Of a DNA stretch of 64,000 nt, positions 1,539 to 3,720 are shown one piece after another. Below the pieces are notes generated by a model, which was given only the letters and a program-made list of their open reading frames with translations, searched no databases and was not told the origin of the DNA. A program made the position numbers and the translations under genes. Source of the DNA: Shigella phage ESh28; the sequence record ON528738. The stretch is one strand, 5' to 3'. Each line of letters starts with the position of its first letter. Positions within the stretch are counted from its first letter, which is position 1.

Positions 1539-2069
<531 letters not shown>

Positions 2070-2128
2070 AGTTGTTTACTTTCTCCTAGAATTGTGATAG
2101 TATATTCACAGTTACTTGGAGGGATAAA

Positions 2129-2545
2129 ATGACTCGTATTAATTTGACTTTAGTATCTGAACTTGCTGATCAACATTTAATCGCAGAATACCGTGAATTG
2201 CCGCGTGTTTTTGGTATAGTTCGTAAACATGTTGCAAATGGTAAGCGGGTTAAAGATTTTAAAATATCTTCCGAGTTTATTTTAGGTTCTGGTCATGTTA
2301 CTTTCTTTTACGATAAGTTAGAATTTTTGCGAAAGCGTCAATCAGACATTATAACGGAATGCTTAAAACGTGGGTTTAGTATAAAAGATACTGAAGTTCC
2401 TGACATCAGCGATATTCCAGTAGAATGGAAAAATGATTATAATCCATGCAAATCAGCTATTAAATTGAGTCAACAACGACTTGATGAAAAAATTTTAATG
2501 AAACCACATTGGTATAAGTATTACGGTAAAAATATTTACATTTAA
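2129..2545 (+). CDS. denV: endonuclease V, pyrimidine dimer DNA glycosylase
   Basis: 138 aa, N terminus [28 protein letters not shown] matches T4 endo V. Confidence 0.9.
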
Positions 2546-2554
2546 AGGAAACCC

Positions 2555-3028
2555 ATGAAAACATATCAAGAATTTATTACTGAAGCAGCTATTAATTCTC
2601 AAATTATTGCTGAATCTTTTACTGATCTTTTGAAATTTAAAAAAGGTCAAAAAATCACTGCTGTATTGGATGATGGTACAGAAGTTGAGATGGATGTACA
2701 GGGATATAATTATGCAGTAGATGGAAAACTGTATAATAAATCTCATGCTAAATTTGATTCATTTGACGATTTTGTTAATACAGTTGAAGATGAAAAAACT
2801 CGTAGATCCATTGCAACTGGCGACGCTAAGGTTCTTATGGCACACGGTCATGAACGTATCCGCGTCAAACAGAATAAAATGGGCGAAGATAATTTCGCAT
2901 TAGTTGGTTATCAATCTGGTAAACAAACTTATGGCTATCAACGTACTGCTACCATGTATAACAAAAATGGTAAAATTGCCTTTGTAAATAGTAAAGGTTC
3001 TATTCAGTACGTTAAATCGTTCAAATAA
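2555..3028 (+). CDS. internal-protein-like polypeptide with capsid targeting sequence
   Basis: N terminus MKTYQEFITEAA matches the T4 internal protein CTS (MKTYQEFIAE) with I-x-E prohead protease sites; size fits neither ipII nor ipIII. Confidence 0.6.
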   Translation: MKTYQEFITEAAINSQIIAESFTDLLKFKKGQKITAVLDDGTEVEMDVQGYNYAVDGKLYNKSHAKFDSFDDFVNTVEDEKTRRSIATGDAKVLMAHGHERIRVKQNKMGEDNFALVGYQSGKQTYGYQRTATMYNKNGKIAFVNSKGSIQYVKSFK

Positions 3029-3180
3029 GCAAATAAGAAATATGGGAACAAACTGGACCTCATGATTCTGTGAGGGATTCCCGCCAACCTGTAATAAGGT
3101 CGAGCCCAAGTGCGGTAATGGGTAAATACAGAAATGGACAATTCATGCGCCACGGAATGGCCCAAATTTAGAGAGAAGAA

Positions 3181-3720
3181 ATGAGAACATTTTTAACTGG
3201 TCCTTATCTATCCCTGATGAATGCTTTTACACACCATTCTGATGCTAGAGTAGAAGAAATTTGTAAAAACGATTATATCCCACCATTTGAAGACTTACTT
3301 AAGCAGTATTGCACACTTCGACTAGATGGTGGACGTCAATCCGGTAAATCAACTGCAGTAACTAATTTTGCCGCTAATTGGTTGTATGACGGTGGAACAG
3401 TTATTGTTCTTTCTAATACTTCAGCTTACGCTAAAATTTCCGCAGATAATATTAAAAAGGAATTTTCGCGTTATTCTAATGATGATATTCGATTCCGCTT
3501 ATTTACTGATTCTGTGCGCAGTTTTATTGGTAATAAAGGAAGCAAGTTCAGAGGTTTATCGCTTTCGCGAATTTTATATATAATTGATGAGCCTGTCAAA
3601 TCTCCTGATATGGATAAGATTTATAGTGTCCATATTGACACTGTACACTGCTGCTGTAATATTAAATGTTGCATTGGTGGTATTACTCGTCCACAGTTTT
3701 TCGTAATCGGAATGCAATGA
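3181..3720 (+). CDS. hypothetical protein with P-loop-like GGRQSGKST motif
   Basis: ORF with Walker A-like motif; weak SD; ATGA overlap with next ORF. Confidence 0.4.
   Translation: MRTFLTGPYLSLMNAFTHHSDARVEEICKNDYIPPFEDLLKQYCTLRLDGGRQSGKSTAVTNFAANWLYDGGTVIVLSNTSAYAKISADNIKKEFSRYSNDDIRFRLFTDSVRSFIGNKGSKFRGLSLSRILYIIDEPVKSPDMDKIYSVHIDTVHCCCNIKCCIGGITRPQFFVIGMQ

What the first reader, a model, noticed from the sequence alone, without database searches (positions are those of the whole stretch)
2555..3180. Internal-protein gene with capsid targeting sequence placed after denV, followed by an unusual noncoding spacer
The product begins MKTYQEFITEAA..., the CTS that directs T4 internal proteins into the prohead, with two I-x-E protease sites, but at 157 aa it matches neither ipII nor ipIII as I recall them, and it sits downstream of denV rather than between e and denV. 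Internal proteins are injected with the DNA, and IPI is known to block a host restriction system. The gene is followed by about 150 bp with no ORF, no early promoter and higher GC than the flanks.
Basis: partly seen in the sequence, partly recalled or inferred. Interest (0 to 1): 0.55.

Follow-up and report, generated by a model that had tools for sequence, protein, structure and literature searches.

The report
Ip4 gene plus conserved phage RNA
The gene is the already named T2/K3-type injected head protein Ip4 in its usual place. The "empty" 150 bp after it is a conserved, folded RNA element found in T4 itself and in several unrelated coliphage families, listed in no RNA-family catalogue, and of unknown job.

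Summary
The ORF at 2555-3028 starts MKTYQEFITE/AAINSQIIAE and lies after denV. It is not ipII or ipIII. It is Ip4: Pfam DUF7412, 156/157 identical to T2 IpIV, and present in this same position in at least 164 phage records. That half is known and ordinary.

The spacer (3029-3180) is the interesting half. It is among the 1% most GC-rich stretches of the window and has no promoter or terminator. It matches 1032 phage records, including T4, where its sequence is annotated as the N-terminus of Vs.8. It is not coding: close relatives differ by a 1-nt indel in the core, in-frame stops are scattered, and spacing to the ATG varies.

It folds on the + strand. Helix P1 covaries at all five pairs. It is followed by a ~36-nt nearly invariant two-hairpin core. 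That core also occurs in rV5-like phages, a Phapecoctavirus tRNA cluster, and a ~125-bp insertion in a few Kagunavirus genomes. It was not found in bacterial genomes or in Rfam.

My best reading is a mobile, gene-independent structured RNA that binds a conserved factor. This function is inferred, not shown.

The parts
2129..2545 (+). denV (endonuclease V); context gene upstream
   Evidence: Pfam PF03013 Pyr_excise, E 2e-13. Annotated as denV in relatives.
2555..3028 (+). ip4 (ipIV) internal head protein gene, 157 aa
   Evidence: Pfam DUF7412, E 2.7e-95. PHROG 3155 'internal virion protein'. 156/157 identical to T2 IpIV. Best BFVD fold match is K3 Ip4.
2555..2584 (+). Capsid targeting sequence MKTYQEFITE, ending in the first I-x-E site
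   Evidence: Translation. 10 of the first 13 residues identical to T4 IpIII. That gp21 protease cleaves after L/I-x-E is established T4 knowledge; it was not tested here.
2606..2614 (+). Second I-x-E site (I18-A19-E20)
   Evidence: Translation. E20 is invariant in the Ip4 family alignment.
3044..3164 (+). Whole conserved structured RNA element (the 'spacer')
   Evidence: blastn finds 1032 phage records. Covariance model R1 scores 90.3 bits at 3042-3124, the only convincing hit in the window. Not coding.
3044..3048 (+). P1, 5' strand (GGGAA)
   Evidence: Pairs with 3078-3082. All 5 pairs change on both sides across lineages and 94-96% of cells are paired.
3078..3082 (+). P1, 3' strand (UUCCC); followed by the 4-nt linker GCCA at 3083-3086
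3058..3075 (+). P2 hairpin inside P1 (CCUCAU / GUGAGG, with a U.G pair)
   Evidence: Present in the minimum-free-energy fold. Replaced by other hairpins in other lineages.
3087..3100 (+). Pa hairpin: ACCU, loop GUAAUA, AGGU. Invariant stem.
   Evidence: Stem invariant in 37 distinct sequences. Loop is GUAAUA in 42 of 47 and GUAACA in 4. Present in the minimum-free-energy fold.
3101..3114 (+). Pb hairpin: CGAGC, loop CCAA, GUGCG, with an internal A.G
   Evidence: Stem positions invariant except for G-U to G-C changes. The loop takes 13 different sequences.
3115..3122 (+). Conserved junction GUAAUGGG. The GGG is the likely 5' strand of a further helix, P6.
   Evidence: GGUAA is invariant. A helix follows it in every lineage: GGG/CCC, UGGG/CCCA, GGCC/GGCU, GAGU/AUUC. 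Read by eye and not tested statistically.
3123..3164 (+). 3' domain specific to Tevenvirinae. Contains conserved AUGGAC (3134-3139) and hairpin GCCA-CGGAA-UGGC (3149-3161).
   Evidence: Conserved blocks in alignment A1. A 33-nt insertion in L043/L096 falls in a predicted loop. The structure is only partly supported.
3169..3171 (+). TAG that closes the reading frame T4 annotates as the N-terminal extension of Vs.8
   Evidence: Sequence. In-frame stop 12 nt before the ATG here and in many relatives.
3181..3720 (+). vs.8 (P-loop-like protein of unknown function); downstream gene
   Evidence: PHROG 1488, E 7e-80. Annotated vs.8 in PP01 and VR7. N-terminus MRTFLTGPYL is conserved from this ATG.

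Best explanation
The region holds two separate things.

(1) 2555-3028 is ip4, a T2/K3-type internal head protein.
- By the established T4 pathway, its N-terminal MKTYQEFITE targets it into the prohead. The gp21 protease removes the leader after E10 and possibly after E20. The mature protein is injected with the DNA.
- T4 Ip1, Ip2 and Ip3 each inhibit a different GmrSD-type type IV restriction enzyme. By analogy, Ip4 most likely inhibits another member of that family. This is inference.

(2) 3044-3164 is not a spacer. It is a structured RNA module, transcribed on the + strand as part of the denV-ip4-vs.8 transcript.
- Its layout is a variable, covarying helix P1 that encloses P2, then a 4-nt linker, then a nearly invariant ~36-nt core made of two adjacent hairpins (Pa with loop GUAAUA, Pb with an internal A.G) plus GGUAA, then a further helix.
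- The same core sits next to unrelated genes, inside tRNA clusters, and in a small insertion between a terminator-like hairpin and a promoter, in unrelated coliphage families.
- I therefore read it as a gene-independent, horizontally mobile RNA. Its invariant core is a specific binding surface for a conserved host or phage macromolecule, acting as a decoy, sponge or recruiter. I do not read it as a leader for vs.8.

Shown: conservation, strand, the P1 structure, non-coding status, and mobility. Inferred: that the RNA acts on its own, and what it binds.
For: Ip4:
- Pfam DUF7412, E 2.7e-95. 99% identical to T2 IpIV. The only fold match is K3 Ip4.
- The CTS matches T4 IpIII and IpII.
- Ip1-3 are each GmrSD inhibitors (PMC12373910).

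RNA:
- 1032 phage records match the spacer, T4 included.
- A 1-nt indel inside the core between close relatives, scattered in-frame stops, and core-to-ATG distances of 92-133 nt that are not multiples of 3 rule out coding.
- All 5 P1 pairs change on both sides. 94-96% of cells are paired, against 19-50% for slid controls. 0 of 500 shuffles reach the covariation score.
- At least 10 different complementary P1 sequences exist.
- G-U pairs in Pb (29 of 37 sequences) and in P2 fix the + strand.
- The Pb loop varies freely while its stem is fixed.
- The core is found in Vequintavirus beside tRNA genes, in a Phapecoctavirus tRNA cluster where a close relative lacks it, upstream of an HNH endonuclease gene, and as a ~125-bp insertion in 4 Kagunavirus records that other members of the genus lack.
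- A strong promoter follows the element directly in Vequintavirus and Kagunavirus.
- The downstream genes are unrelated.
- The core is absent from 185,579 bacterial and archaeal genomes and from E. coli genomes, and has no Rfam family.
Against: - I had no expression data, so no discrete RNA has been shown.
- There is no terminator after the element, and no promoter that the scan recognises directly before it in any lineage.
- Folding energies are no better than shuffles: z is -0.1 to +0.6 in the window.
- Pa and Pb never vary, so covariation cannot confirm them.
- Much of the P1 covariation separates a few lineages, so the number of independent events is about 10, not dozens.
- From my own knowledge, the classical surveys of small stable T4 RNAs found only the tRNAs and species 1 and 2. 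This argues against an abundant free RNA in T4.
- In Tevenvirinae the element always sits directly in front of a gene, so a role in cis there is not excluded.
- Virion presence, cleavage and any target of Ip4 are untested.
Confidence: 0.55

Rival explanations
1. The element is a cis-acting leader of the gene that follows it (vs.8, or an ip gene in some phages). It would be a riboswitch or a protein-binding translational operator that sets how much of the read-through early transcript is translated.
For: - In all Tevenvirinae loci it lies 92-133 nt (core to ATG) upstream of a gene on the same strand. That gene is usually vs.8.
- An invariant core with variable outer helices is the typical anatomy of an aptamer.
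- vs.8 has no promoter of its own in the window.
Against: - The gene that follows differs between lineages: vs.8, ip genes in Marfa and PKO111 copy 1, or an unrelated gene.
- In Vequintavirus and Kagunavirus a strong promoter lies between the element and the next gene.
- In the Phapecoctavirus it sits between tRNA genes with no credible CDS after it.
- The Shine-Dalgarno region of vs.8 lies outside the conserved structure, and no alternative pairing that would hide it was found.
Confidence: 0.15
2. The element is an RNA processing or stability module at operon junctions. It could be a specific endonuclease site, a 3'-end protector for the upstream ip/denV message, or a new self-cleaving ribozyme that separates transcripts.
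For: - It starts within a few nucleotides of the upstream stop codon, whatever that gene is. In one sequence type the stop codons (UAAUAAAGG) run into P1.
- It lies at boundaries of transcription units and beside tRNA genes, which are processed.
- An invariant core with covarying outer helices is also how small ribozymes look.
Against: - It matches no known ribozyme family, even at E up to 10.
- A simple hairpin is enough for 3'-end protection, which would not explain ~36 nearly invariant nucleotides shared between phage families.
- No cleavage data exist.
Confidence: 0.15
3. The conservation acts at the DNA level. The element would be a recombination anchor that marks where ip cassettes are swapped (as PeSLs do), or a protein-binding DNA site.
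For: - It lies exactly at the edge of the hyperplastic ip cluster. ip4, ip10+ip4, ip7, or nothing at all are inserted just upstream of it in different phages.
- PKO111 carries two copies flanking an ip gene.
Against: - Compensatory changes in P1 and G-U pairs that would be A.C on the other strand point to selection on a single + strand.
- It lacks the early promoter that defines a PeSL (PMC4122927).
- A recombination anchor does not explain its presence in tRNA clusters of unrelated phages.
Confidence: 0.05
4. The region codes for protein: the N-terminal extension of Vs.8 as annotated in T4 (651-bp CDS), or a small peptide.
For: - In T4 an ATG inside the element opens a frame that runs into vs.8.
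- Two reading frames are open across the core.
Against: - In the window that codon is GTG, and a TAG at 3169-3171 closes the frame.
- Only T4 keeps the long frame among 37 distinct loci.
- Stops and frame-breaking length changes are scattered. There is a 1-nt indel in the core between the near-identical L013 and L020.
- Vs.8 conservation begins at the ATG at 3181.
Confidence: 0.02

Closest known systems
Ip4 / IpIV of phages T2 and K3 (UniProt Q38388; Pfam DUF7412)
   Same: Essentially the same protein: 156/157 identical to T2 IpIV and 98% to K3 Ip4 with TM 0.87. It sits in the same position, next to the conserved element and vs.8.
   Different: Nothing of substance differs. Here denV lies between e and ip4, whereas T2 has no denV.
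T4 internal proteins IPI, IPII, IPIII (injected inhibitors of GmrSD type IV restriction enzymes)
   Same: It shares the N-terminal capsid targeting sequence MKTYQEFI-x-E, the I-x-E protease motif and the gene neighbourhood. It probably shares the packaging and injection route, and possibly the class of target (PMC12373910).
   Different: The mature part is unrelated in sequence. Its predicted fold matches nothing in the PDB or BFVD except Ip4 itself. Its target is unknown.
T4 small stable RNAs, species 1 and 2 (rnaC, rnaD), in the tRNA cluster
   Same: They are also phage-encoded non-tRNA RNAs of about 120-140 nt with unknown function. In rV5-like phages and the Phapecoctavirus the new element also lies beside or within tRNA clusters.
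   Different: There is no sequence or model similarity: R1 finds nothing in the T4 tRNA region. The element has no tRNA-like 3' part. In T4-type phages it lies about 6 kb away from the tRNA genes.
PeSL cassettes (early promoter plus stem-loop) of T4-like hyperplastic regions
   Same: They are also short conserved non-coding modules at the borders of variable gene cassettes, repeated and shuffled among T4-like phages (PMC4122927).
   Different: The element has no early promoter. It is much longer, with a multi-helix covarying structure and an invariant core. It also occurs outside the T4-like phages.
Hexaloop of 23S rRNA helix 44 (the '1095 loop' of the GTPase-associated centre)
   Same: The Pa loop GUAAUA is identical to the H44 loop G1093-A1098, which also caps a short stem.
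   Different: This is only a 6-nt identity. Local alignment of the element to 23S and 16S rRNA scores no better than shuffles. The neighbouring rRNA sequence pairs long-range, not as a Pb-like hairpin. It is a lead, not a membership.
CsrB/CsrC-type protein-sponge RNAs
   Same: The element has five GGA motifs in 123 nt, a count reached by only 0.6% of windows. Two are conserved, one of them in the loop of a short hairpin (GCCA-NGGAA-UGGC), which resembles a CsrA site.
   Different: It has far fewer sites than known sponges. The invariant Pa-Pb core contains no GGA, so this idea does not explain it. No Rfam CsrB/CsrC hit.

Membership tests
T-even internal proteins (CTS-bearing IPs) | N-terminal capsid targeting sequence MKTYQEFI-x-E | tested here: met
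   MKTYQEFITE. 10 of the first 13 residues identical to T4 IpIII, and aligned with IpII.
T-even internal proteins (CTS-bearing IPs) | gp21 protease motif (L/I-x-E) at the end of the CTS | tested here: met
   I8-T9-E10 and I18-A19-E20. E10 and E20 are invariant in the family alignment. Cleavage itself was not tested.
T-even internal proteins (CTS-bearing IPs) | Present in the mature virion in processed form and injected with the DNA | not testable with these tools
   Needs virion mass spectrometry or N-terminal sequencing.
Ip4 / DUF7412 | Full-length match to the family profile and to named Ip4 proteins | tested here: met
   PF24183, 317 bits over residues 1-157. 99% identical to T2 IpIV. K3 Ip4 is the top fold hit.
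ipII / ipIII alleles | Similarity of the mature part of the protein | tested here: not met
   IpIII matches only the 13-residue leader. IpII gives 31% over 77 aa, mostly leader.
GmrSD (type IV restriction) inhibitors | Blocks a GmrSD-family nuclease | not testable with these tools
   This is an analogy with Ip1-3 only (PMC12373910). The model has no fold similarity to any solved inhibitor.
Any Rfam 15 RNA family (riboswitches, ribozymes, sRNAs, tRNA-like) | Covariance-model match | tested here: not met
   No hit inside 3029-3180 at E up to 10. No hit on the element in the rV5-like or Phapecoctavirus loci at E up to 1.
tRNA / tmRNA | Cloverleaf detected by ARAGORN | tested here: not met
   0 genes in the window. 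tRNAs are found next to the element in other phages but never overlapping it.
Riboswitch / gene-specific leader | Constant association with one downstream gene family, plus an expression platform | tested here: not met
   Downstream genes are unrelated. Promoters intervene. The vs.8 SD lies outside the conserved structure.
PeSL (promoter-early stem-loop) | T4 early promoter fused to a terminator-like stem-loop | tested here: not met
   No promoter or terminator is called in 3029-3180. The early-promoter-like sequence lies upstream of denV instead (seen by eye).
Conserved structured RNA (generic) | Compensatory base changes that maintain a helix, beyond controls | tested here: met
   All 5 P1 pairs change on both sides. 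0 of 500 shuffles reach the score. Slid registers give 19-50% paired against 94-98%. For Pa and Pb the test is uninformative because they are invariant.
Protein-coding sequence | Open frame kept across relatives, with indels in multiples of three | tested here: not met

The most novel reading that the evidence does not exclude
The element would be a new class of RNA-only accessory gene of virulent coliphages. It would be a ~80-120-nt folded RNA that moves horizontally between Straboviridae, Vequintavirinae, Stephanstirmvirinae and Guernseyvirinae. Its invariant two-hairpin core would either neutralise a conserved enterobacterial protein (for example a defence nuclease or a global RNA-binding regulator) or be a new small ribozyme. 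It would have sat unnoticed in phage T4 under a mis-annotated CDS.
Probability: 0.3. Interest if true: 0.85.

Novelty: new variant of a known kind. Interest (0 to 1): 0.62.

Why it matters
Ip4 itself adds little. It is one more uncharacterised member of the injected-protein arsenal, and the obvious test is to screen it against GmrSD variants.

The RNA matters more:
- T4 is among the most thoroughly annotated genomes, yet this conserved element is either unannotated or folded into the vs.8 CDS.
- A structured RNA with a nearly invariant core, shared by four unrelated families of virulent coliphages and gained or lost as a small cassette, behaves like the protein accessory genes that counter host defences. 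RNA examples of that kind are very few.
- It gives a concrete, testable object of 121 nt, with defined helices and an existing covariance model.
- It also corrects the start of vs.8 in the T4 reference annotation.

Tried and rejected
- **Rfam:** scans of the spacer at E up to 10, and of the rV5-like and Phapecoctavirus loci, gave only chance snoRNA-type hits outside the element.
- **tRNA or tmRNA:** none found.
- **Relation to T4 rnaC/rnaD:** none by eye or by model.
- **rRNA mimicry:** the Pa loop equals the 23S H44 hexaloop. But Smith-Waterman scores against 23S and 16S fall below the shuffle mean, and the adjacent rRNA segment is not a local hairpin. Kept only as a lead.
- **tRNA-Tyr anticodon-loop resemblance (CUGUAAU against CUGUAAA):** the register in the Pa hairpin is wrong for an anticodon loop. 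Retron-Eco7 cuts tRNA-Tyr in the variable loop, not the anticodon (PMC12673091). Dropped.
- **Alternative helix GCCCA/UGGGU from the minimum-free-energy fold:** its positions vary without compensation in other lineages. Rejected in favour of Pb.
- **RNAalifold on the plain MAFFT alignment:** it failed to find P1 because the two sequence types were misaligned. This was solved by anchoring the sequences at P1.
- **The covariance model:** it misplaced the 5' strand of P1 for four divergent sequences. For those I rely on the direct search.
- **A gene shared downstream of the element in rV5-like phages:** none.
- **Own promoter in Kagunavirus:** by eye there is TTGATA-18-ATTAAA, but the scan does not call it. 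Not claimed.
- **Metagenome and IMG/VR pattern scans:** few extra loci. A 15-mer scan gave mostly chance hits.
- **Ip4 fold searches:** no informative match. PDB sequence search gave nothing relevant.
- **Literature:** searches on T4 non-coding RNA, vs.8 and phage RNA motifs found no description of the element. The 10,006 viral candidate structures of PMC10690425 could not be checked individually.
Full report
**What the window is.** The window comes from a Tequatrovirus, a T4/T2-like phage. The stretch 2100-3800 matches about 800 phage records. The best matches are 96-97% identical over the full length, and 164 records cover at least 80% of it. The gene order here is nudE (1083-1538), e (1575-2069), denV (2129-2545), the ORF of the finding (2555-3028), a 152-bp gap, then vs.8 (3181-3720), vs.7 and onward.

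- The ORF encodes 157 aa beginning MKTYQEFITEAAINSQIIAESF, with I-T-E at residues 8-10 and I-A-E at 18-20.
- It follows denV by 9 nt.
- The gap has no conserved ORF and no sigma-70-type promoter or terminator call. It has no late-promoter-like TATAAATA site, even allowing one mismatch.
- Its GC content is 0.447 against 0.344 for the window. Only 1% of 152-nt windows reach that value.

**The gene is Ip4 and is already known.**
- It matches Pfam DUF7412 end to end (E 2.7e-95) and PHROG 3155 'internal virion protein'.
- It is 156/157 identical to the IpIV annotated in phage T2.
- Its AlphaFold model (pLDDT 78) matches only 'Ip4 [Enterobacteria phage K3]', UniProt Q38388, in the viral structure library. 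It matches nothing in the PDB.
- Relatives annotate the same gene as Ip4/ipIV: GiZh, PP01, JK38, teqskov.
- Against T4 proteins only the leader is shared. There are 10 identities in the first 13 residues with IpIII, and 31% identity over 77 residues with IpII.
- The position 'after denV' is simply the layout of this phage group. T4 has e-ipIII-ipII-denV. T2 has e-ipIV and no denV. JK38 has denV-ip10-ip4. VR7 has denV-ip10-ORF-ip7.
- Perfect late promoters lie upstream of e (1541, 1554). Only a 7/8 match lies in front of ip4 (2513). Late expression by read-through is therefore an inference.
- On function: a 2025 study showed that T4 Ip1, Ip2 and Ip3 each block a different GmrSD-type restriction enzyme. 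It did not treat Ip4 (PMC12373910). The most likely role of Ip4 is therefore another injected inhibitor of a type IV enzyme. This is an analogy, not a result.
- The family is small: 14 clusters among 5.8 billion proteins, all from T4-like phages of enterobacteria.

**The 'spacer' is widely conserved, including in T4.**
- A 171-nt query over the gap matches 1032 phage records, 543 of them over at least 80% of its length.
- T4 carries it between denV and vs.8. There the annotated vs.8 CDS (651 bp) starts at an ATG inside it.
- More distant T4-like genera keep it too: Gaprivervirus, Mosigvirus, Jiaodavirus, Marfavirus, Roskildevirus, and phages of Klebsiella, Enterobacter, Erwinia, Edwardsiella and Proteus. 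In them the flanks have diverged.
- In Marfa and in PKO111 copy 1 it precedes an ip gene rather than vs.8. PKO111 has two copies.

**It is not coding.**
- In the window the T4 start codon is GTG, and a TAG (3169-3171) closes the frame 12 nt before the vs.8 ATG.
- Across 37 distinct loci the nearest in-frame stop lies anywhere from 3 to 156 nt upstream of the ATG.
- The distance from core to ATG takes values 92-102, 116-118 and 132-133 nt.
- Only T4 keeps the long frame.
- Near-identical relatives differ by a single-nucleotide deletion inside the core: GAGCCCAAGTGCGG in L013 against GAGCGCAA-TGCGG in L020.
- Vs.8 conservation (M-R/K-x-F-L-T-x-P-Y-L) starts at the ATG at 3181. The N-terminal extension of Vs.8 in the T4 annotation is therefore probably spurious.

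**It has a conserved structure on the + strand.** Reading 5' to 3' in window coordinates:
- **P1:** GGGAA (3044-3048) pairs with UUCCC (3078-3082).
- **P2:** hairpin 3058-3075, enclosed by P1.
- **Linker:** GCCA (3083-3086).
- **Pa:** ACCU, loop GUAAUA, AGGU (3087-3100).
- **Pb:** CGAGC, loop CCAA, GUGCG, with an internal A.G (3101-3114).
- **Junction:** GUAAUGGG (3115-3122).
- **3' domain:** found only in Tevenvirinae, with conserved AUGGAC (3134-3139) and hairpin GCCA-CGGAA-UGGC (3149-3161), followed by CC.

The evidence for each part differs:
- *P1.* The helix sequence is different in almost every lineage, yet it stays complementary and stays 4 (rarely 5) nt from the core. Variants are GGGAA/UUCCC, GGGAAU/AUUCCC, GGGAG/CUCCC, AAAGG/CCUUU, AAAGCUA/UAGCUUU, AAAGGU/ACCUUU, AAAGA/UCUUU, GGGG/CCCC, GGAAC/GUUCC, UGAGG/CCUCA, GAAUGU/ACAUUC and GAGGG/CCCUC. 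On two alignments (one from MAFFT, one from the covariance model) all five pairs show changes on both sides and 94-96% of cells are paired. No shuffle out of 500 reaches the covariation score. Sliding the partner by 1-3 columns drops pairing to 19-50%.
- *Pa and Pb.* Their stems never vary, so covariation says nothing about them. But the Pb loop takes 13 different sequences while its stem changes only between G-U and G-C. The minimum-free-energy fold of 3042-3124 reproduces P1, P2 and Pa.
- *Strand.* The frequent G-U pairs (29 of 37 sequences in Pb; one in P2 of the window) would be A.C on the other strand. The folded strand is therefore the + strand, which is the transcribed one.
- *P6.* A helix directly after GGUAA-N is present in each lineage with a different sequence (GGG...CCC, UGGG/CCCA, GGCC/GGCU, GAGU/AUUC). 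This is by eye only.
- *3' domain.* Its structure is only partly supported. One pair covaries (ACAUU/AAUGU, ACAUA/UAUGU) but other sequences break it. A 33-nt insertion in L043/L096 falls in a predicted loop.
- *Energy.* Thermodynamic stability is unremarkable, with z-scores near 0.

A covariance model built from these sequences (R1) finds one copy in the window (90 bits). The next hits are at E 0.1 and above. It finds nothing in the T4 tRNA/rnaC/rnaD region.

**The core travels between unrelated phages.** The ~36-nt core ACCUGUAAYAAGGUCGAGC-NNNN-GYGCGGUAA recurs at 90-97% identity in four further settings:
1. *Vequintavirus (rV5-like) and a second Vequintavirinae group.* It lies about 600 nt upstream of a tRNA cluster. 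A strong sigma-70 promoter follows it directly.
2. *'Pseudomonas' phage PsgM04F.* This is a Phapecoctavirus by its similarity to E. coli phage Schickermooser. The element lies inside the tRNA cluster. Schickermooser lacks a ~180-nt segment that ends exactly after the helix following GGUAAU.
3. *An uncultivated phage contig.* It lies upstream of an HNH endonuclease gene.
4. *Four Kagunavirus records (45-kb siphoviruses: Ivi, EcoPhCCP1, and fEg-Eco19 twice).* The element is part of a ~125-bp insertion between a terminator-like hairpin and a TTGACA-17-GATACT promoter. The rest of the genus lacks the insertion.

The genes downstream of these copies are unrelated to vs.8. Two degenerate pattern scans of 185,579 bacterial and archaeal genomes found no copy. 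A blastn search of 5,426 complete E. coli genomes also found none. No Rfam 15 family matches. The literature searches I could run did not turn up a description.

**Interpretation.**
- The contexts argue against a leader dedicated to vs.8 and against a DNA-level recombination signal.
- They fit a self-contained RNA module that is gained and lost like an accessory gene. Its nearly invariant core is under selection to fit a conserved partner.
- I cannot tell what that partner is. There are three leads. The Pa loop is identical to the 23S rRNA H44 hexaloop, but overall rRNA similarity is not significant. GGA motifs are enriched, five in 123 nt (top 0.6% of windows), and one sits in a conserved hairpin loop of CsrA-site type. 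The element is also repeatedly found near tRNA genes.
- A role in transcript processing or stability remains a serious rival, and so does a new small ribozyme. In Tevenvirinae a role in cis on the following gene is not excluded.
- Points against a free abundant RNA: no terminator, no recognised promoter of its own, and (from my own knowledge) its absence from the classical catalogues of small stable T4 RNAs.

**Verdict.**
- The internal-protein half of the finding is correct but already known. It is Ip4, in its normal place.
- The spacer half is real, and it is the noteworthy result. It is a conserved, structured, mobile RNA element that is present even in T4 under a mis-annotated CDS, is absent from Rfam, and has unknown function.

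Noticed in passing
L004 2531-2641 (T4T HM137666.1, vs.8 CDS 64242-64892): The T4 reference annotation starts vs.8 111 nt upstream of the conserved ATG, inside the RNA element. Only T4 keeps this frame open, so the 216-aa Vs.8 is probably an over-extension of a 179-aa protein.
   Followed up: yes
L107 2053-2150 (Kagunavirus Ivi); the same sequence is in Golestan, L109: Directly after the inserted element there is a promoter (TTGACA-17-GATACT). It is followed by a short C/U-rich stretch containing CCUCCU (anti-Shine-Dalgarno-like), then a GC hairpin with a U-run. This looks like a ~70-nt sRNA gene. It is conserved at 96-98% in many Kagunavirus genomes and is annotated as a 38-aa ORF or left unannotated.
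   Followed up: partly
L091 about 54-85 and 175-200 (also L005 2429-2460): In rV5-like phages a ~25-nt motif, CCYUAGAGGGCUUGAWAGUGC, lies upstream of the element. In one group it lies on both sides of it. It could be a phage-specific promoter or a repeat.
   Followed up: no
L019 958-1114 and 1480-1641 (Klebsiella phage PKO111): Two copies of the element, of the two different sequence types, flank an ip gene. The second copy is preceded by a T4-early-promoter-like sequence (GTTTAC...TAGTATATT) about 25 nt upstream of P1.
   Followed up: partly
window 2073-2110: The same early-promoter-like sequence (GTTTACTTTCTCCTAGAATTGTGATAGTATATT) sits between e and denV. It is the likely start of the early transcript that runs through denV, ip4, the element and vs.8. 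The sigma-70 scan does not call it.
   Followed up: no
records OR584014.1 (PsgM04F), OR584013.1 (PsgM02F), MG065661.1 ('Campylobacter phage C9'): Phages labelled as Pseudomonas or Campylobacter phages are near-identical, over the stretches compared, to E. coli Phapecoctavirus, Tequatrovirus or Vequintavirus genomes. The host labels look doubtful.
   Followed up: partly
L106 2504-2586 (T2, LC348380.1): This T2 record carries a G-to-U change in the otherwise invariant 3' strand of Pa (AAUGUCGAG instead of AAGGUCGAG), which breaks one pair. It also annotates vs.8 as a truncated ORF.
   Followed up: no
L043 and L096 (uncultivated T4-like contigs), 3' domain: A 33-nt insertion (GGCAAGGAGCCCAAUUCGAUUCUAGGAAGGAAA), itself rich in GGA motifs, sits in the predicted loop in front of the conserved AUGGAC.
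   Followed up: no
window 1541-1561: Two perfect late-promoter boxes (TATAAATA), 13 nt apart, lie just upstream of the lysozyme gene e. There is none in front of ip4.
   Followed up: no
window 3181-3720 (vs.8): Vs.8 gives weak P-loop hits: AAA_14, the N-terminal domain of the large terminase subunit, and PHROG 2 terminase. It may be a small NTPase. Some records mislabel it 'endoribonuclease RegB'.
   Followed up: no
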